In this document: in pieces, positions 9,134 to 56,881 of the stretch
Layout: each line of letters starts with the position of its first letter
How positions within the stretch are numbered: the first letter of the stretch is position 1
Virus record (IMG/VR): IMGVR_UViG_3300009182_000043
Location: 19,392 to 83,391 of that record
DNA: 64,000 nucleotides
Strand: one strand, 5' to 3'
Source: a virus
Translations under genes and position numbers: made by a program
The notes under the pieces: model-generated
Told to the model about the DNA's origin: nothing
The model's database searches: none
Seen by the model: the letters and a program-made list of their open reading frames with translations, nothing else

Positions 9134-9155
9134 GTATTATCCTAGATTTATTATG

Positions 9156-9163
9156 TATTTATC
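9156..9163 (-). promoter_or_regulatory. T4-type late promoter box GATAAATA
   Basis: tatttatc on the + strand, 22 nt upstream of the ATG at 9133. Confidence 0.6.
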
Positions 9164-9187
9164 ATTATTAGCAAACAGATGCCCAAC

Positions 9188-20211: not shown

Positions 20212-21042
20212 ATGAGTATTGAAAACAACCCGTTAAAGCAGTATTTCCGCCGCCCAAGTATCTATTTAAAGTTACCTAGCGGGGGATTAGGGTATGAGTT
20301 TGGTGTTATTGACATGCCCGAAACAAAAGAATTACCAGTGTATCCAATGACAGCAATTGATGAGATTACTAGCAAAACCCCAGACGCATTGTATAACGGA
20401 TCCGCTGTTACAGATATTATTAAAAGCTGTGTACCCGCGATAAAAGAGCCATGGAAAATAACCACAGTTGACTTAGATGCTATTTTAGTTGCAATACGTA
20501 TTGCAACCAATGGTAGCGAAATGGATATGGAAACTACATGCCCTAGTTGCAGTGAGGAAAGCAAATATGGAGTTAATCTAAGTATTGTATTGAATAGTTT
20601 CAAAGCAGGGGACTACGAATCAGGATTGACTCTCAATGATTTAAAAATTAAATTTAAACCATTAAATTATAAATCATTGTCTCAAAGTAGTGTGAGACAA
20701 TTTGAAATTCAAAAAGCTATTATGTCAATTGACAGAATGGAAGATGGTCCTGATCGTGAAGCTAAATCAATGGATCTGTTAAAAGTTATAACCGATTCTA
20801 CGTTAGATGTATTAGTCAACACGATTGATTATATTGCTACACCCGACGCAATTGTAAATGACCGTATTTTCATCGTTGAGTTTTTGCAAAACACAGACAA
20901 AAAGACATTTGAAACTATTAAAGACTATAGTGTCAATTTACGTGAAAGCACACAAACTAAACCCCTACAAATCAAATGCATACATTGTTCACATGAGTAT
21001 GAACAATTATTTACATTGAACGTAAGCGATTTTTTCGCTTAA
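20212..21042 (+). CDS. Baseplate hub assembly / tail chaperone protein (T4 gp26-like)
   Basis: LKLPS, PMTAIDE, DLDAILVAIRIAT, two CxxC pairs and a C-terminal DFF; AGGAG RBS. Confidence 0.75.
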   Translation: MSIENNPLKQYFRRPSIYLKLPSGGLGYEFGVIDMPETKELPVYPMTAIDEITSKTPDALYNGSAVTDIIKSCVPAIKEPWKITTVDLDAILVAIRIATNGSEMDMETTCPSCSEESKYGVNLSIVLNSFKAGDYESGLTLNDLKIKFKPLNYKSLSQSSVRQFEIQKAIMSIDRMEDGPDREAKSMDLLKVITDSTLDVLVNTIDYIATPDAIVNDRIFIVEFLQNTDKKTFETIKDYSVNLRESTQTKPLQIKCIHCSHEYEQLFTLNVSDFFA

Positions 21043-21079
21043 GGCTTCTATACCTCGATCCCGAGGGTATGGGTAAGCT
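21030..21079 (+). promoter_or_regulatory. Putative -1 programmed ribosomal frameshift signal: T TTT TTC plus a hairpin
   Basis: In-frame XXXYYYZ heptamer at 21030-21036; 7-nt spacer; stem 21044-21078; the -1 frame is open into 21069..21266. Confidence 0.6.
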
Positions 21080-21266
21080 GTTTGATGGAATGGAACGGGA
21101 GACTAAAGCTATTAAAAAGAACTCCGCAAGAATAGCTTGGTATATGCGTGGGGCGTTGACCTATGAGGATGTACTAAATCTTAGTCCAGACGAATTAAAA
21201 TCAGTTAATGAAATCATTGAAGAAAACTTAGAGACTACTAAGAAAACACAGATGCCGTTCTTCTAA
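21069..21266 (+). CDS. gp51-like small baseplate assembly protein, possibly the frameshift extension of the gp26-like ORF
   Basis: WYMRGALTYEDVLNLSPDE; directly follows the gp26-like gene in the -1 frame. Confidence 0.65.
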   Translation: MGKLFDGMERETKAIKKNSARIAWYMRGALTYEDVLNLSPDELKSVNEIIEENLETTKKTQMPFF

Positions 21267-21320
21267 TCCATGGAATGTCATTTGATAATCTTAGGGTTAG
21301 TATTGTGTTCATTCATTGGG

Positions 21321-21785
21321 AGATGAACTGCGTTCATCTAAGTACTCGCTATCGCTCGTCCTTATTTGTTTTACGGTCTTTTAGTTTAATTAATTGTAAT
21401 TTGTTTATTTGTATTAAGGACTATATTGCCGCTTAGAAAGCCATGGTAGTGCTATTCAGCACTACCAATGGTAAAGGTATGTTTGCCATGCCCGTCGTCC
21501 ATAGTCATCTATTCCCCGAATAATCGACTCTTTTTTGTCACTATTCGCCACCGGTTGCTCTGTAGGGTTTACTGGGTCTGTAGTTGAAGCTATTAGGTTC
21601 TGCCTAATTCTTCAGCAACGCATGTTACATATTCGCAAGATAAAGTAAAATATGTACTCATTGAAGGTTCGCTTTGACGAGAGCCTTCTCGGTGTTCCAT
21701 GTTATTGCTAACATGCATACTCCAGAATCCAACGGCACAGCACAATCTGTACAGTCTCAAGGAGGACTTGCAACCAAGCCTACGA
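21321..21785 (-). ncRNA. Candidate large structured non-coding RNA (or structured ssDNA element) of unknown family
   Basis: 523-bp gap with no ORF in the track; at least seven hairpins plus nested long-range helices; a GCAA tetraloop and several G-U pairs favour the minus strand. Confidence 0.55.
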
Positions 21786-21789
21786 ATTT

Positions 21790-22356
21790 TTAAATATTAA
21801 TAGTAAGTGTGGACTTTGTGTCTGTATTTTCAATTGACTTTGTGTCTGCTGAATATGTTTGTACTAATTTGGTATTGTGTTTAAAGAATAAATCGAATTC
21901 CATGAGGTACCAATCACCAAACTTTTCGCTTCCGTAAAAGAAAAAATTATCGGTGATCCATGTTAGCTTGCATTGCACAGCAACATAACGACCCTTACGA
22001 TTAAACTTCATAAACAGAATGTTTAAATCGTCTGGATCGGCTACATCAAGTAGTTGTTCTAACCAAGAATCCAATATTTTGTGTTCACCTGATAATAACA
22101 AGTGAAAAGGAAAATCAGCGTAAAACTTGCATTCTACGTTCATCTTCGGAAAGCTTTGTCCGGGCACAATATCACCCTTAAAGCTACGAATCTGACCTTC
22201 ATGTAGAATCTGTGTTCTAGATTGATTCTTGCCACCAACGTAAGCACCGGAACCAGGGGCACGAATAAAGCTTTCACTATATTTTTCGCTTAGATATTTT
22301 GCGATTTCTCGCTCAAACCCTGATCCTTTGTTCTTACTCGGTGATGGCATAGACAT
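21790..22356 (-). CDS. Holliday-junction-resolvase-like PD-(D/E)xK nuclease
   Basis: SKNKGSGFEREIA, GDI and VECKFY; start probably at MSMPSP (22356), after GATAAGTA. Confidence 0.75.
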   Translation of the reverse strand: MSMPSPSKNKGSGFEREIAKYLSEKYSESFIRAPGSGAYVGGKNQSRTQILHEGQIRSFKGDIVPGQSFPKMNVECKFYADFPFHLLLSGEHKILDSWLEQLLDVADPDDLNILFMKFNRKGRYVAVQCKLTWITDNFFFYGSEKFGDWYLMEFDLFFKHNTKLVQTYSADTKSIENTDTKSTLTINI

Positions 22357-22386
22357 ATACTTATCTCTTGTGTGCAACTTTCAAAA

Positions 22387-26697: not shown

Positions 26698-26740
26698 CTA
26701 TTTTTATTAGGAAAAGGTAAAAATAGCACTTTTTAGTAGC

Positions 26741-26748
26741 GATAAATA
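26741..26748 (+). promoter_or_regulatory. Late box GATAAATA
   Basis: 20 nt upstream of the ATG at 26769. Confidence 0.6.
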
Positions 26749-26768
26749 TATTTAGTAAAGGTTTAAAT

Positions 26769-34314: not shown

Positions 34315-34322
34315 GATAAATA
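34315..34322 (+). promoter_or_regulatory. Late box GATAAATA
   Basis: 21 nt upstream of the ATG at 34344. Confidence 0.6.
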
Positions 34323-34343
34323 TATTAGAGAGATACTACATTT

Positions 34344-37715: not shown

Positions 37716-40700
37716 ATGACATCTCAAGTAAGAACGCTTAATTTTCTTCCTGAAATATTTAGGACATCATCTAACCAACAATTTTTAAGTGCAACACTGG
37801 ATCAGTTGGTTACTCCACCTAAATTGGATAAAATAGAAGGGTACATTGGTAGAAAATTTGAATATGGATTAACTGCTAGTGATACCTATATTCCCGAAAC
37901 AAATAGTATTAGACAACATTATCAATTAGAACCAAGTGTTGTCTTTACAAAATCAAATACTAGTACCGCAGTTGACGTATTAACTTATCCGGGACTAATT
38001 GATGCATTGGCAGCGGAAAATGGTTCAGTAGTAAATCATTCTAAATTATTTCAAAATCAATTTTATTCATGGGACAGTTTTGTTGATATGGACAAACTTG
38101 TTAATTTTAGTCAGTATTATTGGTTACCTGATGGGCCGGATAGTGTTGAGATAACCACAGACTTACTACACAATGAACTTCTTTTCATTGTAAAAGATGA
38201 GACAATTGATTATTCATTCACTGCCAATGACAAAGCTTTGGGTAAAAATCCTGAAATAAAATTATTACGTGGCGGCACATATACCTTTCAAGTAGACCCA
38301 GCTTCCAAAATGTACATACAAACTAGTCCTGGTATTTCGGGTGTTGATCCTGCTAGAAATAATGTAAGTTCTAGAGAAATATACGGAGTTGATGGCAATG
38401 GAAACGGTATAATTACTTTTACTGTACCTCATGTAAACGATCAGGATTCTTTTATATACGCAAACAGTATTTTTGTTGATTTGATATCTACAATACCGTT
38501 TGATAGCATTCATGGAAAAGCATTAAGTACATTTAAAAACTTAGATAATGTAAATATTTTAAATGATAAAATTATAATGTTTTATGGGTTTGCACCTAAT
38601 CAAACCGCACGTATTGTTAATTTTTACGATGATGGTACTTTGGATAATCTTACTTTTGATTCTAGTACTCCCACCGTAGTTAATAACTATTTTTACAAAA
38701 TTAGTTTAGTTGCAGATGAGACCGGAGATCCTTTAATCTCATTATCAGAGTACAAGCAAATACCAACCAATCAAAAAATAACTATTACCAATGGAAAACA
38801 ATTTATTGGAAAATCTTTTGTACGCAATGAATTTGGAGAGATAATTTTACTACCACCAATCACTGCTAATTTAGACACCTTATATTACCAAGATTCTAAA
38901 AATTCTTTAAAAACAGGAACAATCAAATTAATTGATAATCAAGACAGCCACGCTATAAACATTGAAACTGGTATATTAGGAAAAAGAAATTACACTAGCC
39001 CGTTGGGAGTAAAATTTACTAACGGATTAAAAGTATATTTTACCGGATTGGTTTACCCACAAAATTACAAAAATAAAAATTATTATGTTGAGGGTGTTGG
39101 TTCTAGCATTTACCTAGTACCCGAATCAGAATTGTTAGTTCCAGAAAAATTTACTGAAAACGTATACAAATATTACGACACCGAAAATTTTGACACTTCA
39201 GGTTTTAGTGAAAGACTAAATGTTCCTGTTAATAAAGACTATATAACCATTAACAGAAAAGCACAAAATAGAAACGCATGGAGTCGAAGCAACAGATGGT
39301 TCCATATTGACGTATTAAAGAATACTATAAAATATACAAATGGTTCTATTGCTCAGAATGCATTGAATAATCAATTAAATCGTGCAAACAGACCTATCAT
39401 AGAATTTTATCCAAATTTAAAATTATTTAATACTGGCACTGTTCACAAATCATTTGTTGATTTTATTGATACTGTTACTACCAATGTAGATTCTCAGATA
39501 TTAGGTCAAACATCTTATATGATAGATACTAGTATACCGTTATTCGATGGTGCTAGAATTGTTTTTACAAAAGATAATAATATTGAAGTTAAAAATAAAA
39601 TCTTTATTGTAAAATTTCAAAAATTATCGGTTAACGCAACTCCTGTTATTACATTAACTAATACACCGGAGGATGTAGTTCTTCCTGACGAACAAGTTGT
39701 ATCCTTAAAAAACAATATTAATAAAGTTTATTACTTTAATGGTTCAAATTGGAATAGTTCTCAAGCAAAGACATTAATAAATCAACCTCCTTTGTTTGAT
39801 GTTTTTGATATTAATGGTATTAGCTTTAGTAATCAATCATATTATAATGGAAGTAATTTTGCCGGTAGCAAGTTATTTTCTTATGCTATAGGTACAGGTG
39901 GCAACGACAGTGTTTTAGGATTTCCTATTAAATATAGCTCGGTTTCTAATGTTGGTGACATAAGCTTTAACGTTAACTTCAATAGTGATTCATTTAATTT
40001 TATTAAAAATACTATATCAACTACATATAAAATAACTGACGGGTATGTACATAATTATACATCACGAACCAAATACAACAGAAAAATAGGTTGGGAAACA
40101 GCAAAAGGAGAAAGTTTTCAGTATCAAGCATTTGATATTAACTATTTGATTGGTCCAAGTAACCCGTCTTTGATTTTTAATATTTTACCAGTTGATGATA
40201 CAGCAACTCCATGGCCAATAACAAAATTATTTATTGATAGTGTAGAACAAACAGCCGATCAATATACTGTCACTAAATCAACTGCAAAAAATCAAACTAC
40301 TATTAGTTTATTGAATCCTCCTAAAAGCAATACATTATTGCAGATATTAATATACAGCAATGACCCGTTAGACCCTAATGCATACTATACAATACCTAGT
40401 AATTTAGCTAACAATCCATTCAACGTAGATATTGAAGAATTAAGTTTAGGTGATTTAAAAGGACAATATCAAAGTATTTTCACAAATAGCAGAAAAATAA
40501 CCGGTGATGTTTTTGGTTCAAATAACTTTAGAGATTCCGGTGATTTGATTCCCTATGGAACTAAAATAATTAGAAACAGTGCGTCACTAGTCAATACAGC
40601 AGTTTTTTTAAGAAATAGAGAATATAACTTAATTGATGCATTGACCTTTAATGAATATCAGTATATAAAATTTAAACAATTACTTTTGAATACTGTTGAC

Positions 40701-43700
40701 CAATCAGATTATACACCTTATATGTCAGGTGCAACAATGTTAGACGATGCTTTACAACAAATTGCATCTTACAAGCAAGAATCTGAAAGCTTCTTTTGGT
40801 CAGATATGCTTCCGGCAAGAGCACCCTACATTTCAAAGAATTATGTTTTTAATACATTTATTGACACCAGTTTCTTCCCATTAAGCAGAATATATGATTT
40901 TGACAACGCAAATTATTATTCAGTGTTGGTATATTTAAATTATGTAGAGAATGGAATTACAACCTCAGAACAATTGGTAAGAGGGCGTGATTATATTGTA
41001 AGTAAAACAGAACCTAAATTACAAATTACAAAAGATTTATTGCCTGGACAATCAATAACTGTCAACGAATACAATAATACATATGGTAGTTATGTACCAA
41101 ACACACCCAGTAAATTAGGATTGTATCCCGCAGTTGAACCGGGCATTGTGTTAGACAATACTTATTTGATACCTACATATTTTATTAGAGGACATGACGG
41201 GTCTCTTACTAAGTTATACGGTGACTATCAATATAGTGTACTAAAAGATTTTAAAGATAAGGTTTTATTAGAGTTCGAAACACGCATCTATAATAATATT
41301 AAAGTAAGTGCTAGTATACCTATAAAAGAAGAAGATATTATTCCTGGATACTTTAGAAACACTGGCAATTCATTAGAAGAAATTCAAAAAATATATACAG
41401 GTAATTTCTTGGATTGGGTTGGAAAAAACAACATTGATTACGCTAATCAATTTTATTCACCTAGCGAAAAATTTACTTGGAACTACGCCGGCGGTGTTGA
41501 TAAATTTGGTAAAAGAGTTATTCAAGGATTTTGGAGAGGTATATACCTGTGGTATTTTGATACTACTACCCCGCATTCTACACCATGGGAAATGTTAGGA
41601 TTAGTTAATAAACCTACATGGTGGGACGGTAAATATGGTGCGGCACCGTACACAAGCGAAAATAAAGTTCTTTGGACAGATATTGAAGCAGGAAAAATCA
41701 ACGGAACTGTAAACCCTGCAAGAGCAAGACCAAGATTATCAAAAATATTACCGGTTGATAGCTATGGTAATTTAAAAAATCCATTTACTTCTGTTGTAAA
41801 CGAATATACTGATGCTGTATTTGATAAAGATTGGCAAGTAGGAGATATGGGTCCGGCTGAGTACAGTTACAGAAAGAGTAGCAATTACCCATTTGATTTA
41901 ATTAAAATTCTTGCACTAATGAAGCCTGCTAAGTTTTTTGCTTTAGCACAAGATTTAGATTTATATGCGTTTAGTTCAGAATTCAATCAATATATGCTAG
42001 ACGGATTTCAACATGATAATAAAATTCCGTTACTATATGGAAGTGGCACGGCTCAACACAGTTACATGAATTGGATAGTTGATTATGTACAAAATACAGG
42101 TCATGTAGGATACGATAAAGTTAGTTCATTGTTGAATAATCTAGATGTTAGACTTACATATAGAGTCGCTGGATTTACGGACAAAGAATATTTGAATTTC
42201 TATCTTGAAAAATCAAGTACCAATTCAAATAATGCTTCATTGTTGTTGCCTAACGAAAGTTATAATGTTCTACTGTATCAAAATCAAGTCACTAATATAA
42301 TTAGATTTAGCAGTATTATAATACAAAAAACTGCTGCCGGCTATAAAGTTTCTGGTAATAGTCAAACACGTGCATATTTTATAACGTATGTTAGTAAAAA
42401 CACCGGTAATACTAGCTATGAAGAAATAACAGTAAATGGTATAACTGTAAATATACCAATTTTATATGAAAAAACTATAACGTATGTACCTTATGGTATT
42501 GAGTTTACTAGTCCACAAGAATTATCTGAATTTATAGTTAATTATGGTAGATATTTAACAGACCAAGGACTTATTTTTGAAAATCAAGAAAATGGTTTTA
42601 TTTTAAATTGGAATCAAATCGTAGCAGAAGTCTTATACTGGGTGAGTGCAGGATGGGAAAACGGCAGTTTAATAAATGTCAACCCATCAGCTAACAGATT
42701 AGTAATTGATAAAGAAAATTTAATTGTACAACCACTTACATTGCATAATCAAAACTATGCACTAAATCAAAACTTATTTGCAATTAATATAAGTGACTTG
42801 GGAATTACTAGAGATGGTACAAGATTCGAAATCAAACCATTAAATGACGGTGATACTATTGCATACTTCACTGCACAAATGAGTTCGTTAGAACACATCG
42901 TTGTATTTGATAACAAATCTTTGTTCAATGATACTATCTTTAATTCACAGACTGGCTTACGTCAAAATAGATTGTTCCTTAGAGGTCTAAAGAGCGCAGA
43001 ATGGAATGGTACAATGAATGCTCAGGGTTTTATATTAAATCAAGACAACATTGAGGCTTGGACATCAAATATAAAATATACTAAAGGTTCAATTGTTACG
43101 TACCAAAACAAATATTGGATGGCTAATAAAGTTATACCCCCTTCACTAACATTTAATGTGAATGATTGGATAGAAACTAATTACGCACACATTCAAAAAG
43201 GATTATTACCTAATGCAAGTACACGTGCAGCCGAAAGTGTTTTGTATTATGATATTAACAATGCTAATTTAAAAAATGACGGAGACGTATTAGGATTTTC
43301 GTTAATTGGATACAGACCGCGTGATTATCTTGCGGCTAGTGATTTATCAGATATTTCACAAGTAAATTTATTTAAAACAATGATATCTGAAAAAGGAACA
43401 AAGAATATCATTGATGCTGTTCAAAATATTAAGTTAGATATTGGTCCTATCACATATGATGTTTATGAAAACTGGGCTATAAAAACTTCTGAGTATGGCG
43501 GTGTTGCAAATAAAAACTTTATAGAAATTGTTTTAGATAAAAAGTTATTGACCGGAAATCCCAATATTATTGGAATTGTCAAAGATGTTCCAGAAACATA
43601 TTTAATGCAAACAATACCGTTATCTATGCCCAATGGTAATTTTAGTAATTTTGGTGTTCCGATAACCAGTACTAATATTTTACCAATAAAAACAGGAGAT

Positions 43701-46700
43701 AATTTAGAGTTACTGCCAACTGCTGGGTATGTTAATTTTAATGATATTAAAATACATAGTTTCCTTTATGAAACACTAAACAACAACGCAGTAAGTATTA
43801 AGGACCTATATCAAGGTGATTATATATGGTTAGCTGACGAACTTAGCACTTGGACAGTACTAACTCCAGTACCAATGGGGACTATTAATAATGTTCTAAG
43901 AGTTGTTAATGTAATTAATAATTTGAATGGAACTTGTTCTATTGTTTTTGATAATTTTCATAATTTACCAATTTATGCTACATTTATGATTATCAATTAT
44001 GATGCTAGTGTTAATGGATTTTATAGAGTTAACAAAGTAATTGATTCAAACACGGTGCAAGTTGATTTGTCATTACCTGCTAGTACTAGTGCCATCACAG
44101 CTACTGGTATATGTGCAAAATTTCAAAAACAACGAATCGCTAGTACAAAATATATTTCTGATTTAAAATTAATAAATGATGGTGTAGGTAATCAAAAAAT
44201 TTGGGTTGATGGTGACAGTAATTCTAATTGGACAGTTATACAAAAAACAATAAATTATAAGTTTATTGATACGGTAAAATTAGGTTCAACTCAACGTTTT
44301 GGAGAGTCTATTGCATATGATGATGATGCAGGAGTATTTGTGGGTGATCCGTCTTTAGGAACTGTTTACAGATATGCACCGTTAAATCAATTAAACACCG
44401 TTAGTTCATACGAATTAAAAGAAACTATCAACCTTGGTTCAAATTATGGAACTGCAATAGCAAAGAGTAACGATATATTAGTAGTAACTGCACCTAGTGA
44501 CGCCTCTAGTAAAATTTACATTTACGCATTGCACAAAAGCAACCATACTGCAATAAAATTGAATCAAACAATTACTATTTCAGGTAAAAAAGTTGGAGAG
44601 ACAGTAGCTTTATCTGGTGATAAAAATTGGTTGTTTTTTAGTTCTATAAATGAATCTACTGTATATGTTTATCGATTAGATGAAAAATTAACTCGAACCT
44701 TGACAGGATATTCTACTGCATATACTATAAAAGCAGGTGATACTAAGTTTACCGTCTCCGGAGACCAATCAGATTCTTTGGGTCACGGTGATAAGGTTTG
44801 CTTTTCATCAACGGGAATTTTTTATACCATTGAAGTTGCTACATACAATTCAGCTTTAAATTTAACAACATTTTTCTTAAATGGATCATTTAAAACAGAC
44901 ATTGATTTAGCCACACCAATATATAAGGCTACATATATCTATTCAAGCATATCATCTTTAAGTATAGCTAATGTTATACCTGCTTGGTCAAGTTTAAAAA
45001 CATATTCACCAAATGATATTGTTTATTATAATGGATTTACCTACATTGGTATCTCTCAATCAAACAGTAATAAAAATCCAAGCACACAAACAAGTGATTG
45101 GAAATTAAGTAATACTGATTTTGGAAGAACAATCTCAAGTAACTATGATGGTACTAAAATATTCATCGGAGCCCCAACTTTCGACTTTACAACCAATCTT
45201 TATAATATGGGTAAAGTTTACGTATACAATCGCATAGTTCAACAAGCTCAAATTGATACTAACACACTTACTTGGACTGATAGAACTGCGCCATTGGCTT
45301 GGACTCCTGTTAACCCAATCAGAATATATAGAAATGGGGTTTATTTAGAACCAAATACAGACTATACCGCATCAACTAATACAGTTACTTTTAAATATAC
45401 TTTAAATATAGCCGCCGGCGACATAATTACAGTAAGTTCTGGTGATTTTGTGTACACTCAAGAACTAATTCCATACGACTATTCAACTAGTATTCGTTCA
45501 GGAATATTGTTTGGTAATGGCTTAGACACTAATAAATTTGGTACTGAAGTTTTAGTTGGCTCTCCTATAGACATTTCATCAGACAATATTGAGGGTGCAG
45601 TATATAGATATACACATGAGGGCAAGAGTTATGGCACACTAACTGGCACTAGACCGGTAACTTTGTCATCTCCTGCTACTATATTGATTAATGGAATAGC
45701 TATTAATTTACCGGGCACGGGTATTAATGATATTATCAATACTATACAAAATGTTTATTCTGGTAGATTATATAACATTGGTGCAGAAAAGTTACCTAAC
45801 AATTGTTTAAAACTTTATTTAAAGTTTTCTGTTACTAGTAGATTAAATGAAAAACTTGAAATAACTGTATTTGATAAATCAGTTATTGATAGTCTAGGTT
45901 TTTCCGAGTATACTAAAACTCAAGTAATTCGTGAAGTGCATGGCGTCACAGATCCTTGTCACTTTGGTTACACAATTAAATTTAACGAATACAATTCATT
46001 TGCTGTAAGTGCAACTAAATCAAGTAAATTTTTACCTACAACATTTGACTTTGTTGATGACGGTAACGCCAACAATGATACATACTTTGATAATAACTTT
46101 ACAAGATGGGTAGATTTTTATGCAGGTGTAGGAGCAGTTTATATCTATGATTACATACCTGAAAATAATGAAAATTTAAATAATCTAGGTAAGTATGTGT
46201 TCTCACAATCATGTAATGATTTGACAACCAATAAAGGAAAAAATACTAATTATGGAAAACGTTTAGTTTTTACTAACTATAATTTGGTTATAGGTATTCC
46301 TGATTATTTTGAATCATCTTTCCCTAGTTTGGGACGAATCACTGTTTATAGAAACTTGTCAAAGACCCCTAACTGGAGCCCTTACAGAAAACCGGTAGAC
46401 TATGTTGATATTGATAAAATTACCGGAGTGCAATTATATAACAATGTAACCAATGAAAGATTAGTATCATTAGATTATATAGATCCACAACAAGGAAAAT
46501 TACTAGGAGTTGTTACCACTAACCTAGATTATATTGGTAATATTGATCCCGCAGGATATAATGTTAGCAACAGAAATAATAAACAAGTTTGGGCATCTGA
46601 TTATATTGGTAAATTGTGGTTTAATACATCTACGGCAAAATTTAATAGCTATCATCAAGATGACATATTGTATAATAGTTCACATTGGGGCACTGTTTTC

Positions 46701-49700
46701 CCCGAGAGTACAGTCACGGTATATTCTTGGATTGAAAGTAATATCACCCCTGTAAATTATGTAGGTAACGGAAGACCTTATAATATAGAATTATACTCTA
46801 CTACAGTTGAAGTTGATAACACAGGATCACTTGTATTAAAATACTATTTTTGGGTTCGTAACACTAATATTGTTTTTACAAATAAAGGAAAAACACTGGC
46901 TGATACAAACTTAGAATTGTATATTGCTAATCCTATAACTTCAGGAATACCTTTCTTTGCCGCATATAAGCCAAATGTATTTGGATTATACAATGCAGGA
47001 GAATTTATAAATGATGTTACTACTAGTTTATATATTGGATTTAGTACAAGCAATAATGATACCCCTGCGTATAATGAGTTTAAGTTAATTCGTGCAGGGT
47101 ATGAAGATGATTTTATTTCTGGGTTGCCGTCAATTTATGCACAAAATACTAAACCTGAAGCTTTGTATGAAAAATTGTTAGATAGCTTTGCAGGTTTAGA
47201 TAGTCAAGGTAATGTAATCCCTGACATCAATCTACCTAAATTAATGCAAACAGGTGTAGCATATAGACCAAGACAAAGCTTGTTTAAGAATAGATTAAAA
47301 GCGTTAAAAAATTACTTTGGATATGCCAACAATGTTTTAAAACAACATCCAATTGCAGAATTCAGAACTCCAAGTTTATTGGGTTCAAGCAATACTTCTA
47401 GTAGCACAGTAAGAGTTCCCACATTGTTTACAATTTTAGGGTCTGATTTTGATACAACAAAATATTGGGAATATGTTTACTGGTGGGCTGAAGGATATAG
47501 TGTTAATACTAAAATTGACGTTGAAGTTCCTAAGTATTATGGACTAGCAACATTAACTCCTTATACAGGAATGATTGCTGGCGTCACATCTAATGGTGAG
47601 GGCAAGCGTGAAGTATACGCACATGACGGCACAACATGGAATAGAGTTGGTTTAGAACAGGGCACTATTCAATTACTTGATTCATTATGGGATTACGAAA
47701 AAAATAAAATAGGATTTGACAACAATTTCTTTGATTTGAATGCGTTTGACGCTTATCCTTCAATGGAAACTCGCTATATTGTACGTGCTTTAAATGAAGA
47801 AGTATACACCGAAACATTACGTGTACATCGCAATAAAAGTTTGATTTTAATGTTTGAATACATTGTAGGGGAAAACACTACATCTCAAAATAATTTAACA
47901 TGGTTAAATAAAACTTCATTAGTTGATGTACATCATACTTTACGTGAATTAGCACAAGATAAAAATTATAAACGTGACAATCAAACTTTCTTAGATGGGT
48001 ATATTAATGAAGTAAAACCGTATCGTGTTGTCATTAAAGAATTTTTATTAAAATACAATGCGTTAGATTCTTATACAGGTCAAATAACTGACTTTGATTT
48101 ACCGGGAAGATACGACAATAAAACTATTAAATTTATTACACCTAATTTAGTTTTTGATGCAGTAAGAGATAACGGGCAGTTCTTACCTAATGATTCTATT
48201 TGGACTGATAGTACTTATTCTGACTGGTACAACAATTACGGATTATCACTTACTGGTAAAAAGAATTACCCTATAACTACCCTAGCCGCATATGTAGATT
48301 TGGTATCTGATGAAATACATTTAACCGACGCTTATGGTTTTCCTGTAATTGGTAGAATTAAAATAGACAATGAATTCATCGACTATTCAATAGTTGATAG
48401 AAAAAATGGAAAGTTGATGAATTTAACTAGAGGAGTAAATGGAAGTAAAATAGCAACTCATAATCCACCTACTACTGTCTACATAGATTTACCAGGAGTT
48501 GTGCTGTTAGATACTGGTAGAAATTATATTGACCCTCCAACAATCAGCGCAATAGTTGATACTTCTATATATCCTGCACCAACTAGACCGGCATTGCTTG
48601 AACCAGTGATGAGTAATGGAAAATTAATTGATATTATTGTACTTGATCCAGGAGCTGGCTATACAAATAAACCAGAAATTTTAATTCAACCTTCAATTAC
48701 CGTGTTCTTTGATAGTAACAATATTAATTATCAAGAGCATACAATACAGATTTCTAAAATACCATTAGTCACCGGAGATGTAGTTAAGTACACAATGGGA
48801 CCAAATACAAATGGTATTTCAGGATTAGAAAACAAAAAATATTACTACGTCCGCGTAATTAATTCAGATTTATTGTTCCGCAAAAATTCTGTAATTGCTT
48901 TGTATAAAACTAAACAAGATGCATTAGTTGATAACCATAGAGTAGTATTGGTGTCAAACTATTCAACCATTAAAAATAAATTAGAAGTAACTGCACGTGC
49001 AGTGCCTATAATTTCAAATACTCCTACAAGAGAAATAACTACTACAATAAAATTTGATAGAACTAGTTATAGAACCAAAGTAGAACCTTGGATTTCTGGT
49101 GAGTTTTATGGTAGTATTGTTACAGCTACAGGTGCTGAAAGCAGTTTAGGAACATTATTAGATTATGCAATACCTTACCCAGGACTTATTGCAAATAGTG
49201 ACACCAAAGGTGCAGTATTTACCGTCTTTAATATATTATTAAATTATACATATGATGTTCAAATTACATCCACTGGTACTTTATACAGTGTAGGTAACAC
49301 ACTTACAATCAAAGGAAATAATTTGGGAGGAACTACTCCACTAAATGATTGCGTATTGACAGTAACTCAAGTTAGTGGTATAGGTGAAATACAAAAAGTA
49401 ACAATAACAGGAACACCGGCAACTGTTACACGAATTAGCAAACAAGAGGCTGTGCTACCAATTACTAATATAACCTTAACCAACACAACCACAGCAATTG
49501 CAAGTAGTGGATCTTTAGTAGGAAACACGTTTATTGCAGGCGGAACTTTGACCAATACTTTTGTCAAGGGAATGACACTATCCGGCGGTACTATACCTGC
49601 AAATACTGTTTATATTACTGATGTAGTAGTGAATACTCTTAATGTTACGTGTTCTGGTGCAAAAACTGTTCAGTATATTGATGGTATACTTCCGCAAGTG

Positions 49701-52700
49701 GGAATGGTTGTTACAGGTGATACGGTTCCAGAAAATACTAGAGTTACAAAAGTATTAGGCAAAACAATTACTCTGTCAGCTAACGTACCTGCTAATAAAA
49801 AATTAAAGATTGTTGCTAAATTCTACAAAGTTAACACAACATCTGCATCACCGAAGACATCAATAGCAATTACCGGAACTATTGGAAATGCAGTAGTTAG
49901 CCTTAATTATGGTAAAACTAATTTAAGTCCTGGACAAATCAAAGGTCTTGAATTATATTTTTACAAACTTAAAACACCATATACTTATGTTGATTCACGA
50001 AGTGGCGGAGCAACAATAAAAATATACTCACCTAATTTTTCTGTGCAACAATTAGAAAACAAATATTTTATTGAAATAGTTGATTCTGGTACAAGATATT
50101 CTTCAGGTGATGTTCTTACAATCAAAGGAAGTTTGTTGGGTGGATTAGACACAGTTAACAACCTACAAATTAAAGTAATTTACACAATCTTGGGTGGTAT
50201 ATCTTTATATGAGTTAGTTGGAATTTCTAGTAAATCTTTTAACAAATTCTATGTAAAACCTTTAACTAGTACTAACATAGCATTGTACTATGATGCACCA
50301 CTGCAAAATCCAGTATTGTCTTATGATTTTATACTGTTTACTACTAACGATTATGCGTTTATTCCCGAACCAATTTATATAACTTCGGGACATACTCGCA
50401 ATATATATAGCCTAGTAACCTTTAACAACGTTTTATATCGTTGTGTTGCTAGTAATAATGACACTACGTTTGATTTTAATAAATGGGAAATAGTTAAAAG
50501 TGATGACCCTGTATTAAACGCATTAGACCGAACTATGGGGTATTATGCTCCTACAGAAAATATGTTGGGTAAAAATTTACCTATGTTAATTTCAGGTATT
50601 GACTATCCAAATAATACATATTTTGGTCAATCTTTTGATGATAACACTAACGTGCTTGATACTGTACTTAAGGATCAAATTTTTTATCCAAGAAACATAT
50701 CTCTAAGAGGTGTTACTTTTGGTAGTAACGGGGTATTTGTTGCATGTGGCGAAACTAATGACTATTCTATTATTCTTATTAGCTATGATAATGGTGAAAA
50801 TTGGTCACTTAATAAAATCAGTAAGACCAAATTAGAAGTACAAGATATTGTTCATCATGATGGTCGGTATGTAGTCGTAACACAAACACCAACTTCACCT
50901 ATAGTAATTAGTAATAACCTAGTGTCTTGGATCTCAGCCGGTGATTTTACACCATACGACTCATCTAATTTTGATATTACTCCGTTTGATAGTACTTCAA
51001 TTTTTGCACCAAAAGATAAACTTAACAGTGTATCATATCACAACAATTTGTATTTTTCTGCTGGAAACGAAGTGATAACAAGTCTTGATAGTTATTCTTG
51101 GAAATCAACATTTAATTTAAAGAGTAAACTACCTCAAGAATTCAAAAGAATATCATACGTTTCGTCTCTGGGTTTTGATGGTTATTTAGCTGTTGGTTAC
51201 GGTACAATTACTGCGGTTGAAAATACTATGACTACACTTCAATCAACCTCACGTGTTTTTAGAAGTTTAGATGGATATACTTGGGAAGAAGTTTTACCTA
51301 GAGTAACTACAAGTAGTTTAAATGTATTGATATCCTCAGGTAGTATTATTATAGTAGCCGGTGATGATTGTAATGTCTTTACTTCAAGCAACACTTACCA
51401 TTGGGTGCAGGCAACTATTAGTGATAGTAACACCGATAACTTATTAAATGGTACATTTGCAAACAACACATTTGTAATAGTTGGTGAAAATGGTAGAATC
51501 TTAATAAGTTATGATGGTGTTAATTGGGATGGTATGATATCTAATACCAATCAGAGATTAACTAGTGTTAGTTATAATGGGACTCATTGGATTGTCGTAG
51601 GAGACAATGCTACTATTTTAAGAAGTGTTGATACTTTTGTTTGGGAGAACGTTTCTCTTATTAAATCAGACCAAGATTTTTACGAAATTAAGGGCGATTC
51701 GTTCATGTCTGGATATGGTCCGGAAGAATTAATTCCTGGTGCAATAACAGACACGTTAACTATGACAGTTATTACACGTCCCGGAAGTACTTGGTCTGCT
51801 GCCGACTTTGGATATACTGGTTTTACTGTAAAATCATTTACACATAAATTGACAGAAGAAAATATATACTTTTCAACTATCACAGAAAACCCAGCACAAT
51901 TATCAGTATTTTTAATGGATAAGTCTAATAGTTCTGGAATTAAAGTATATCCAAATATAACTACAACCCTAACAAATCAGTACACATATACTATTGATTG
52001 GGTACAACAAACAATTGCGTTAAGTGCATATGATGTTGATATGCTAAATGATGATACTAAATATTTGCATATTGAAGTTTACGAGTTTGGTAACGGTAAC
52101 CAAGAAATAAGAAGTAACTCACAAAATATGCCAATGCGTATAGATCCAATTTCTAAACATACTGAAATTTGGCTTGGTTATGCATATGACGAAGGAACAT
52201 ATAACAACCCTGTTGTTTATCACAACGGTGAAAAGTTGGTGTATTTGACTGATTATGTTGTTTCAACTACCACTACAAAAGAAGCTAAACTATTATTTTC
52301 AACTGCATATCATCCAAGCAATGATTATTTAAGTTTTGTAGTAATGGGTCCTGCAATATCAGAGGTTGAGGGTAATGTTGCACACAGTATTCCGGAAACA
52401 CAAGTTTTTGTATATCCTGATGATTTTGCTTCACCATTTACAGTAACATTATTAAACTATGTAGAATCAACTAGCAATGGTTATTCTATAATTGTAGATT
52501 TTAACGGACTAAGATTATCTCCTAGTTCTGATTATATATTAACACTTGATCCAACATCATTAATAGGTACAGTTACTCTTACTGGAATTCAACCAACCAC
52601 AGGAGATATATTAAGTGTAACATCATTTAATGATACTCGACACCAATATTTATTGACTGAGGTTGTAAATACATTAAAAGTAAATCCTATATTCTATGTT

Positions 52701-54570: not shown

Positions 54571-54578
54571 GATAAATA
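54571..54578 (+). promoter_or_regulatory. Late box GATAAATA
   Basis: Immediately after the stop at 54570; GGAG RBS and ATG at 54605 follow. Confidence 0.6.
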
Positions 54579-54604
54579 TTTAAAGACTCTGGAGCAACAA
54601 GCAA

Positions 54605-56831: not shown

Positions 56832-56855
56832 AATAAAAACCCAAGCATATGTCAT

Positions 56856-56878
56856 TATAAATACTCGGACGGAGTATT
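56856..56878 (+). promoter_or_regulatory. Exact T4 late promoter TATAAATA with an RBS-sequestering hairpin
   Basis: TATAAATA at 56856-56863; AATACTC-ggacg-GAGTATT at 56860-56878 covers GGAG. Confidence 0.65.
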
Positions 56879-56881
56879 ACT

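What the first reader, a model, noticed from the sequence alone, without database searches (positions are those of the whole stretch)
21410..21785. Large, compactly folded non-coding element with nested long-range helices and a possible pseudoknot, downstream of the gp55-gp47-gp46-resolvase operon
Seen in sequence: this is the only long ORF-free gap in a densely coding window, and it is more GC-rich than other spacers. Local hairpins occur at 21445-21466 (GGTAGTGCT/AGCACTACC), 21517-21547, 21586-21613, 21626-21656, 21663-21688, 21698-21715 (GCAA tetraloop on the minus strand) and 21735-21752. Long-range pairings nest consistently: 21427-21437 with 21728-21737, 21477-21481 with 21716-21720, 21549-21553 with 21690-21694, and 21554-21559 with 21614-21619. 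A further 7-bp pairing (21500-21506 with 21419-21425; GACUAUG/UAUAGUC on the minus strand) crosses the outer helix, forming a pseudoknot. It echoes the group I P7 GACUA/UAGUC core, yet no gene is interrupted. Inference: an unclassified, ribozyme-sized phage ncRNA co-transcribed with the recombination genes.
Basis: partly seen in the sequence, partly recalled or inferred. Interest (0 to 1): 0.85.

Follow-up and report, generated by a model that had tools for sequence, protein, structure and literature searches.

The report
Knotted non-coding RNA of lake jumbo phages
The gene-free gap behind a small resolvase gene of this uncultured freshwater giant phage encodes a real, intricately folded RNA of about 360 bases with two pseudoknots; hundreds of related phages keep it, part of it resembles an orphan bacterial RNA (Polynucleobacter-1), and its job is unknown.

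Summary
Window 21426-21785 (minus strand) is a conserved structured RNA, not chance hairpins.

- **Distribution:** a homologue lies just 3' of the resolvase gene in about 190 fetched IMG/VR loci, always in the same gene order.
- **Not coding:** there is no codon periodicity and no conserved ORF.
- **Structure:** on 83 diverse sequences, 92% of cells in 94 proposed pairs are paired, against 31-44% when partners are slid. 71 pairs show compensatory changes.
all seven local hairpins and two of four long-range helices hold. The other two long-range helices and the "group I-like" pseudoknot do no better than shuffles. Two different pseudoknots are supported instead (21638-21643 with 21505-21510; 21574-21576 with 21514-21516).
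- **Strand:** G-U pairs outnumber A-C 4:1, and the GNRA loop appears on the minus strand only.
- **Known families:** no Rfam family matches, including Polynucleobacter-1 (RF01718).
- **Bacterial relative:** a model of the phage core (P5-P8) hits the stretch directly 3' of RF01718 in 9 of 10 freshwater betaproteobacterial loci (up to 24 bits). It is therefore a distant relative of that orphan RNA.

Function is unknown. Other agents of this scan found the same family on other DNA.

The parts
21765..21780 (-). P1 hairpin (21775-21780 pairs with 21765-21770), 9 nt after the resolvase stop codon
   Evidence: 5 of 6 pairs show compensatory changes. MAFFT misaligns some rows, so only 79% of cells are paired.
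21720..21764 (-). P2 (CUCC 21761-21764 with GGAG 21720-21723), enclosing the P3 hairpin (21747-21752 with 21735-21740) and conserved joining strands
   Evidence: P2 is 100% paired, and two sequences carry a CUCU/AGAG double change. P3 has 5 of 6 pairs with compensatory changes.
21698..21715 (-). P4 hairpin capped by a GNRA tetraloop (GCAA here)
   Evidence: The stem covaries. A closed GNRA loop occurs in 49/83 relatives on this strand and 3/83 on the other.
21549..21694 (-). Core domain. It contains P5 (21690-21694/21549-21553), P6a (21684-21688/21663-21667), P6b (21678-21680/21669-21671), P7 (21659-21661/21622-21624 and 21649-21656/21626-21633), P8 (21614-21619/21554-21559), the variable P9 hairpin (21586-21613), and the conserved boxes ACUACAG (21578-21584) and YUACAG (21560-21566).
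   Evidence: P5, P6, P7 and P8 are 96-100% paired, and P7 has 11 of 11 pairs with compensatory changes. Model R1 of this domain scores 147.7 bits here. R1 also hits the Polynucleobacter-type bacterial RNA.
21638..21643 (-). PK1, 5' strand (in the P7 loop); pairs with 21505-21510
   Evidence: 97% paired, 5 of 6 pairs with compensatory changes. Slid controls give 38-57%. Pair states change 3-17 times, by pair, on an RNA tree (12-17 for four of the five pairs counted).
21505..21510 (-). PK1, 3' strand (AGAUGA)
21574..21576 (-). PK2, 5' strand (CCC); pairs with GGG 21514-21516
   Evidence: 93% paired, and each of the 3 pairs has a few compensatory changes. Support is weaker than for PK1.
21514..21547 (-). 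P10 hairpin (21537-21547 with 21517-21528), followed by the PK2 3' strand GGG (21514-21516)
   Evidence: 11 of 11 P10 pairs show compensatory changes, 91% paired.
21445..21466 (-). P12 hairpin. The 8-bp stem is invariant in all 83 relatives while its loop varies. It is followed by an invariant AUGG.
   Evidence: 7 pairs never vary and 1 varies on one side only. This conservation goes beyond what pairing needs and is unexplained.
21426..21444 (-). Conserved 3' tail (AUGGCUUC...GCGGCAAU). A closing helix of 21427-21431 with 21733-21737 is possible.
   Evidence: The segment is conserved. The putative closing helix is 77-95% paired, pair by pair, but has no real compensatory change, and it overlaps P3.
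21321..21365 (.). Two conserved hairpins after a variable AT-rich spacer. They are probably back-to-back terminators. The 21341-21365 hairpin is followed by a T-run on the + strand. The 21321-21339 hairpin may end the minus-strand RNA.
   Evidence: Mean pairwise identity is 0.78, against 0.49 for the spacer. The 21321-21339 hairpin covaries. The consensus terminator scan found nothing, so the terminator role is inference.
21790..22377 (-). Upstream gene: Hjc/RusA-like PDDEXK Holliday-junction resolvase, 195 aa
   Evidence: Pfam PF24608, 8.8e-24. PHROG 244, 'RusA-like Holliday junction resolvase'. It lies directly 5' of the RNA in nearly all fetched loci that extend that far (two exceptions, L138 and L146, not followed up).

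Best explanation
**Shown**
- Window 21426-21785, read on the minus strand, is a conserved non-coding RNA of about 360 nt. It may run on to about 21321 (about 460 nt).
- It starts 9 nt after the stop codon of a Hjc/RusA-like resolvase gene.
- It folds into twelve helices. P1-P4 form a 5' domain. P5 closes a multi-helix core holding P6-P9. P10-P12 form a 3' domain.
- Two pseudoknots lock the fold. One ties the P7 loop, and the other a CCC in the P9/P8 joining strand, to the strand just 3' of P10.
- It is a fixed, syntenic part of one clade of uncultured freshwater T4-like jumbo phages.
- Its P5-P8 core is a distant relative of the RNA that continues Rfam's Polynucleobacter-1 motif in freshwater Betaproteobacteria.

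**Inferred**
- It is made as the 3' end of the resolvase/gp46/gp47 transcript, or from a minimal promoter overlapping the stop codon.
- It acts as a free, pre-folded RNA in trans. The many invariant unpaired nucleotides, the GNRA loop and the invariant P12 stem fit a binding surface for a protein or ligand, or a catalytic core, better than a simple mRNA end.
- What it binds or does is not known.
For: **Conservation and synteny**
- All 80 loci fetched through the resolvase protein hold the element at 70-95% DNA identity.
- The loci fetched through the P12 pattern hold it too (112 nhmmer matches), full-length unless the contig ends within it.
- The order resolvase > RNA < orf65 < baseplate gene is kept throughout.
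- RNA core identity is 0.74, against 0.47-0.69 for the flanking coding ends.

**Not coding**
- No 3-periodicity and no conserved ORF.

**Structure**
- RNAalifold found 46 of 77 pairs compensatory.
- The curated fold is 92% paired, against 31-44% for slid controls. 71 of 94 pairs have double changes. The covariation score is 0.398 against 0.06-0.08, and 0 of 500 shuffles reach it.
- The pseudoknots alone are 95.6% paired, with 8 of 9 pairs compensatory.

**Strand**
- G-U 410 against A-C 103. GNRA in P4 in 49/83 sequences against 3/83 on the other strand.

**Expression hint**
- Lake metatranscriptome contigs from four runs of four studies cover the stretch; in three of them they cover the RNA. 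Three contigs join the resolvase gene to the RNA.

**Relative**
- R1 hits the stretch 3' of RF01718 in 9 of 10 bacterial loci, at 9.9-24.4 bits and E down to 2.8e-4. Noise tops out at 12.1 bits in the whole window.
- The bacterial helices covary.
- The reciprocal model R3 has its top hit of the whole window on 21552-21715.
Against: - No raw stranded reads were available, so a discrete transcript, its ends and its strand are not shown directly. RNA-library contigs can also hold DNA.
- No promoter or terminator was found by consensus scans. The conserved TAAAAATT upstream is not the GATAAATA-like motif seen before late genes here.
- Single-sequence folding energy is only about 2.4-2.9 sd better than shuffles, and about the same on both strands.
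- The trans-acting role is pure inference.
- The bacterial link is weak in the reverse direction. R3 scores 12.5 bits here but only 7.3 bits or nothing on the RNA in 8 other phage loci. The 3' domain model R2 finds nothing in the bacterial RNA.
Confidence: 0.6

Rival explanations
1. A cis-acting 3'-UTR element. The fold stays attached to the resolvase/gp46/gp47 mRNA. It protects that mRNA from 3' exonucleases, or insulates the two converging transcription units from each other.
For: It begins 9 nt after the stop codon, with no recognisable promoter. It sits between convergent operons with terminator-like hairpins at 21321-21365. Metatranscriptome contigs join gene and RNA.
Against: A 360-nt double-pseudoknotted fold with dozens of invariant unpaired bases is far more than 3'-end protection needs. 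The bacterial relative is not behind a resolvase gene; it stands between a divergent DUF6641 gene and a recombinase gene. The resolvase homologue of Salicola phage SCTP-2 has no such tail.
Confidence: 0.18
2. An RNA partner (guide, cofactor or regulator) of DNA-recombination enzymes. In the phage the partner would be the neighbouring Hjc-like resolvase. In the bacterial relatives it would be the neighbouring 188-aa catalytic-domain-only tyrosine recombinase.
For: The phage RNA always follows the resolvase gene. The related bacterial RNA lies upstream of a 188-aa tyrosine recombinase that matches only the catalytic part of integrase profiles. Both neighbours act on DNA junctions.
Against: This is guilt by association only. 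The recombinase is missing next to at least one bacterial copy, L336. No variable 'guide' segment was identified. Resolvase homologues in other phages work without such an RNA. The search for sequence matching the invariant P12 strand in the window (both strands, up to 2 mismatches) found no enrichment.
Confidence: 0.1
3. A group I-type intron or a free-standing derivative of one, as the GACUA/UAGUC 'P7 echo' suggested.
For: The size is similar, the core is pseudoknotted, there is a GNRA tetraloop, and phages of this kind carry introns (review PMC13282480).
Against: Rfam shows no match for any intron family at E<=10. No gene is interrupted, since the resolvase ORF ends before it and nothing coding follows on that strand. 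The proposed P7 pairing is only 46% paired in relatives.
Confidence: 0.03
4. A DNA-level element, such as a replication origin, packaging site or recombination hotspot. On this reading the inverted repeats matter in DNA rather than in RNA.
For: It lies next to recombination genes. Folding energy is similar on both strands.
Against: There is a 4:1 excess of G-U over A-C in pairs, and the GNRA loops are strand-specific. Long-range helices and pseudoknots up to 140 nt apart covary, which cruciform DNA does not explain.
Confidence: 0.04

Closest known systems
Polynucleobacter-1 RNA motif (Rfam RF01718; Weinberg et al. 2010, PMC2864571)
   Same: Both are orphan RNAs of fresh water with unknown function. 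The stretch directly 3' of the Rfam motif in Betaproteobacteria shares the phage RNA's core, in the same order: a hairpin, GGAA-N-CAC(C)GAG, P6a/P6b with the same UCU/AAU dimorphism, P7 with a 14-15-nt loop, UGCGUU, P8, and CAUAAA...ACAG.G.AACCG. R1 hits this stretch in 9 of 10 loci. Its helices covary. The reciprocal top hit falls on the phage RNA.
   Different: The Rfam model itself (141 nt, the 5' part) matches none of 41 phage records at E<=1, while it scores 53-102 bits on 8 of 8 bacterial controls. The phage 3' domain (P10-P12) has no counterpart there. The bacterial core is about 30 nt shorter (no P9). The context is DUF6641 plus a small tyrosine recombinase in bacterial chromosomes, not resolvase plus baseplate genes in a phage. 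The reverse model is weak on other phage members.
GOLLD (RF01998) and ROOL (RF03087), large ornate RNAs often carried by phages
   Same: They too are large, elaborately folded RNAs of unknown function that are not obviously cis-regulatory and are often phage-borne.
   Different: There is no covariance-model match at any threshold tried. This RNA is about half their size. It is tied to one syntenic spot in one phage clade. It was absent from 185,579 prokaryote species genomes by a 22-nt signature.
Group I introns (RF00028)
   Same: Similar size, a pseudoknotted core, a GNRA tetraloop, and occurrence in T4-like phages.
   Different: There are no exons, no Rfam match, and the P7-like pairing is not conserved.

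Membership tests
Polynucleobacter-1 (RF01718) | Reaches the family's Rfam gathering score (37 bits) | tested here: not met
   No match in the window's own 83-kb record at E<=10, nor in 40 diverse member records at E<=1. The positive control scored 53-102 bits on 8 of 8 bacterial loci.
Polynucleobacter-1 (RF01718) | Homology to the RNA that carries the motif (shared core beside the Rfam segment) | tested here: met
   R1 with filters off gives on-target hits of 9.9-24.4 bits in 9 of 10 loci and 14.6 bits in L343. Noise reaches at most 12.1 bits in 128 kb. The R3 top hit of the window is on 21552-21715, E 0.021. However, R3 is weak on 8 other phage loci and R2 finds nothing.
Polynucleobacter-1 (RF01718) | Genomic context (the paper places it downstream of GOS11034 genes; here it lies between a DUF6641 gene and a small tyrosine recombinase gene) | tested here: not met
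   The phage context is resolvase > RNA < orf65 < baseplate gene. The bacterial context is shown.
Group I intron (RF00028) | Covariance-model match | tested here: not met
   Nothing at E<=10 in 21000-22100.
Group I intron (RF00028) | Interrupts a gene (flanking exons) | tested here: not met
   The resolvase ORF ends at 21790. No ORF or codon periodicity follows on that strand.
Group I intron (RF00028) | Conserved P7 pairing (GACUA/UAGUC) | tested here: not met
   21500-21506/21419-21425 is 45.6% paired in 83 relatives, no better than shuffles.
GOLLD / ROOL / OLE / raiA / HEARO and all other Rfam 15 families | Covariance-model match | tested here: not met
   0 matches at gathering score in 64 kb. 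Only one chance lncRNA hit at E 9.9 locally.
tRNA / tmRNA | ARAGORN detection | tested here: not met
   0 genes in the window.
Self-cleaving or self-splicing ribozyme (any) | Catalytic activity | not testable with these tools
   This needs in-vitro transcription and cleavage or splicing assays.

The most novel reading that the evidence does not exclude
The RNA and its bacterial relative are partners of DNA-junction enzymes: an RNA that guides, activates or restrains a Holliday-junction resolvase in phages and a catalytic-domain-only tyrosine recombinase in bacteria. This would be a new kind of RNA-assisted recombination.
Probability: 0.08. Interest if true: 0.9.

Novelty: new variant of a known kind. 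Interest (0 to 1): 0.75.

Why it matters
Large, tightly conserved, pseudoknotted RNAs with many invariant unpaired bases have usually turned out to be ribozymes, ligand sensors or cores of RNA-protein machines, and few such classes are known in phages.

- **Scale:** this one is a fixed component of a whole clade of abundant lake jumbo phages.
- **Extends a catalogued motif:** the work shows that Polynucleobacter-1, an orphan motif catalogued in 2010, is only the 5' piece of a larger RNA.
- **Links phage and bacterial versions:** the core of that larger RNA is shared between bacterial chromosomes and giant phages.
- **A route to experiments:** Polynucleobacter can be grown in culture (my own knowledge, not checked here), so the shared core can be studied experimentally even though no phage of this clade is cultured.

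Tried and rejected
- **Rfam:** no match at gathering score or at E<=10. ARAGORN found nothing.
- **Cultured phages:** blastn of the gap gave no match. nhmmer and R1 found nothing on the PA5oct, GAP32 and SCTP-2 loci or whole genomes.
- **GAP32 gap:** the 800-nt unannotated gap at the equivalent place holds small ORFs and only sub-threshold sRNA hits. I did not pursue it.
- **SCTP-2:** its resolvase homologue has no downstream gap.
- **Prokaryote genomes:** the 16-base P12 pattern gave 120 chance hits, none holding the RNA. The 22-base version gave 0 hits.
- **Bacterial loci by sequence:** nhmmer of the phage profile found nothing significant there.
- **3' domain:** R2 found nothing in the bacterial RNA.
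- **Promoter and terminator scans:** one weak plus-strand sigma-70-like site, below the shuffle expectation, and no terminator. TAAAAATT is barely enriched (28 sites against 17 expected) and not tied to gene starts.
- **Trans targets:** the search for sequence matching the invariant P12 strand (both strands, up to 2 mismatches) found no enrichment.
- **Metatranscriptomes:** only contigs of relatives were available, so there is no strand, ends or level, and the uncovered part 21308-21511 proves nothing.
- **Literature:** searches found no description of this RNA.
- **Other readings:** RNase P-like and 5S-like resemblances of short motifs were considered from memory and dropped, because no Rfam model matches.

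Full report
**Setting.** The window is part of an 83-kb IMG/VR virus record that CheckV rates 24% complete, so the genome is in the jumbo range. Around the finding, two plus-strand genes converge on a minus-strand operon.

- Plus strand: a T4_baseplate-family gene (20212-21042) and a 65-aa ORF (21069-21266).
- The 523-nt gap 21267-21789 is the longest ORF-free stretch of the window. Its GC is 0.42, against about 0.35 beside it.
- The nearest cultured relatives are remote. Only the SbcC gene matches, at about 66% DNA identity, in PA5oct-like Pseudomonas phages and in GAP32.

**Is it more than chance?** On its own the sequence folds only 2.4-2.9 sd better than dinucleotide shuffles, on either strand. 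The comparative evidence is decisive.

- The resolvase protein retrieved 307 IMG/VR relatives. All 80 loci kept carry a homologue of the gap directly 3' of the gene, at 70-95% DNA identity.
- A scan with the invariant P12 hairpin gave over 119 more contigs. The profile found the RNA in these loci (112 matches), full-length unless the contig ends within it.
- The order resolvase > RNA < 65-aa ORF < baseplate gene is kept throughout.
- The RNA core is more conserved (mean pairwise identity 0.74) than the ends of the flanking genes (0.47 and 0.69) or the AT-rich spacer behind it (0.49).
- There is no three-base periodicity of substitution and no ORF conserved in place.

**Structure.** RNAalifold on 65 sequences predicted 77 pairs, of which 46 have compensatory changes. 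I curated a fold on 83 sequences thinned to under 93% identity (alignment A2). It has twelve helices and two pseudoknots (coordinates under 'parts').

- 92.0% of 7380 cells are standard pairs, against 31-44% when the 3' partners are slid by 1-3 columns.
- 71 of 94 pairs show changes on both sides.
- The covariation score is 0.398, against 0.06-0.08 for slid controls. No shuffle in 500 reaches any of the five measures.
- PK1 (loop of P7 with AGAUGA 3' of P10) has 5 of 6 pairs compensatory. PK2 (CCC with GGG) is thinner but consistent. Tested alone, the two are 95.6% paired against 38-57%.
- On a tree built without those columns, the PK1 pair states change 3-17 times, by pair (12-17 for four of the five pairs counted). 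Tree error inflates this, but it is clearly not one inherited event.

- Confirmed: all seven local hairpins, and the long-range helices 21549-21553/21690-21694 and 21554-21559/21614-21619.
- Not supported: the outer helix 21427-21437/21728-21737, the helix 21477-21481/21716-21720, and the 'P7-like' pseudoknot 21500-21506/21419-21425. Together they are 60.8% paired, the same as shuffles (60.5%).
- Within the outer helix, an inner 5-bp core is conserved, but it never covaries and it competes with P3.

**Strand.**

- In the paired columns G-U/U-G occur 410 times and A-C/C-A 103 times.
- P4 is capped by a closed GNRA tetraloop in 49 of 83 sequences on the minus strand, and in 3 of 83 if read on the other strand.
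- The RNA is therefore on the strand of the recombination genes. It begins 9 nt after the resolvase stop codon.

**Ends and expression.**

- The conserved fold ends near 21426. After a variable spacer come two conserved hairpins (21321-21365). One is followed by a T-run on the plus strand. They look like back-to-back terminators, although the consensus scan did not call them.
- No promoter was recognised. The conserved TAAAAATT overlapping the stop codon differs from the GATAAATA-like motif upstream of likely late genes.
- Lake and freshwater metatranscriptome contigs of relatives, from four runs of four studies, cover the stretch; in three of them they cover the RNA. Three contigs join the resolvase gene to the RNA's 5' part.
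- This fits co-transcription, but contigs show no strand, no ends and cannot exclude DNA.

**What it is not.**

- No Rfam 15 family matches at gathering score in 64 kb or at E<=10 locally. There is no tRNA or tmRNA.
- It is not a group I intron: no model match, no interrupted gene, no conserved P7.
- The three cultured jumbo phages checked (PA5oct, GAP32, SCTP-2) lack it.
- A 22-nt signature is absent from 185,579 prokaryote species genomes.

**Relation to Polynucleobacter-1.** Earlier agents of this scan named this Rfam motif as the closest known family, so I tested the claim.

- RF01718 itself hits none of 41 phage records. It hits 8 of 8 control loci from Polynucleobacter, Limnohabitans and relatives at 53-102 bits. 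I fetched those loci with a 24-nt motif from the paper's alignment.
- My model of the phage core (R1, P5-P8), run without filters, hits the stretch immediately 3' of RF01718. It scores 14.6 bits in L343.
- In ten other diverse loci it gives on-target hits in nine, at 24.4, 22.7, 21.2, 19.2, 18.6, 17.8, 16.7, 13.6 and 9.9 bits, with one off-target hit of 13.4. Noise in the whole 64-kb window peaks at 12.1 bits.
- The matched bacterial stretch has the same order of elements as the phage core (listed under 'closest known'), and its helices covary on their own.
- A model built from the bacterial stretch (R3) puts its best hit of the entire window on 21552-21715, minus strand (12.5 bits, E 0.021).
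- The link is partial. R3 is weak on eight other phage members. The phage 3' domain finds nothing in the bacterial RNA. The contexts also differ: in bacteria the RNA stands after a divergent DUF6641 gene and usually before a 188-aa tyrosine recombinase that has only the catalytic domain.
- I read this as a shared, old core module with different outer domains, at about 75% confidence. It is not membership of RF01718.

**How it probably works.**

- Shown: a conserved, independently folding, double-pseudoknotted RNA on the minus strand.
- Inferred: it is released or acts as a free RNA. Its many invariant unpaired bases, its GNRA loop and the oddly invariant P12 stem form a surface for a protein or ligand, or a catalytic core. 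P12 has 8 bp that never covary while every other helix does, its loop is free to vary, and its 3' strand repeats the CACUAC of the first box.
- The main rival is a cis-acting 3'-UTR element.
- The most novel reading not excluded is an RNA partner of junction-processing enzymes, prompted by the recombination genes beside both the phage and the bacterial versions. That rests on association only.

**Verdict.** This is a real and interesting RNA class of unknown function. It is uncatalogued in its phage form and is a distant variant of an orphan catalogued motif. Other agents of this scan reached the same family independently on other genomes.

Noticed in passing
L343:6218-7145 (also L345:4064-5073 and most of L324-L350): In freshwater Betaproteobacteria the Rfam Polynucleobacter-1 motif (141 nt) is only the 5' part of a conserved non-coding stretch of about 900 nt. 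That stretch lies between a divergent DUF6641/phrog_31551 gene and a 188-aa tyrosine recombinase that has only the catalytic domain. The Rfam family seems to be truncated.
   Followed up: partly
window 21321-21365: Two adjacent hairpins are as conserved (0.78) as the RNA core. The loop GAACGAAGUGA is kept even where the stem changes. They are probably a bidirectional terminator pair, but the loop conservation is unexplained.
   Followed up: partly
window 21445-21466 and 21578-21584: The P12 stem is invariant in 83 diverse relatives while its loop varies freely. Its 3' strand shares ACUAC (CACUAC in most relatives) with the conserved box ACUACAG in the core. This hints at alternative pairing or sequence-specific recognition.
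   Followed up: no
related loci, e.g. L098, L161, L199, L107: The distance between the resolvase and SbcC genes is about 600 nt in many relatives but 1250-2480 nt in others. In L184, L147/L149, L196, L191, L167 and L131, 700-1040 nt are inserted between the RNA and the 65-aa ORF. These are probably mobile genes.
   Followed up: no
window 26740-26768, 34315-34343, 9134-9170 (minus), 54575-54604, 56850-56881: A GATAAATA / TATAAATA-like motif lies 20-35 nt upstream of several structural genes. It resembles T4 late promoters.
   Followed up: no
window 37716-53798: A single ORF of 5360 aa on the plus strand.
   Followed up: no
window 21028-21266: Another note of this scan (e1-6104192) proposes a -1 frameshift joining the 276-aa and 65-aa ORFs just 5' of the gap. 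I did not examine it.
   Followed up: no
L202:3107-3910 (Cronobacter phage GAP32): An unannotated 800-nt stretch lies at the equivalent position, between the small ORF after the baseplate gene and the recombination genes. It contains unannotated ORFs of 69-74 aa, and no homologue of this RNA.
   Followed up: partly
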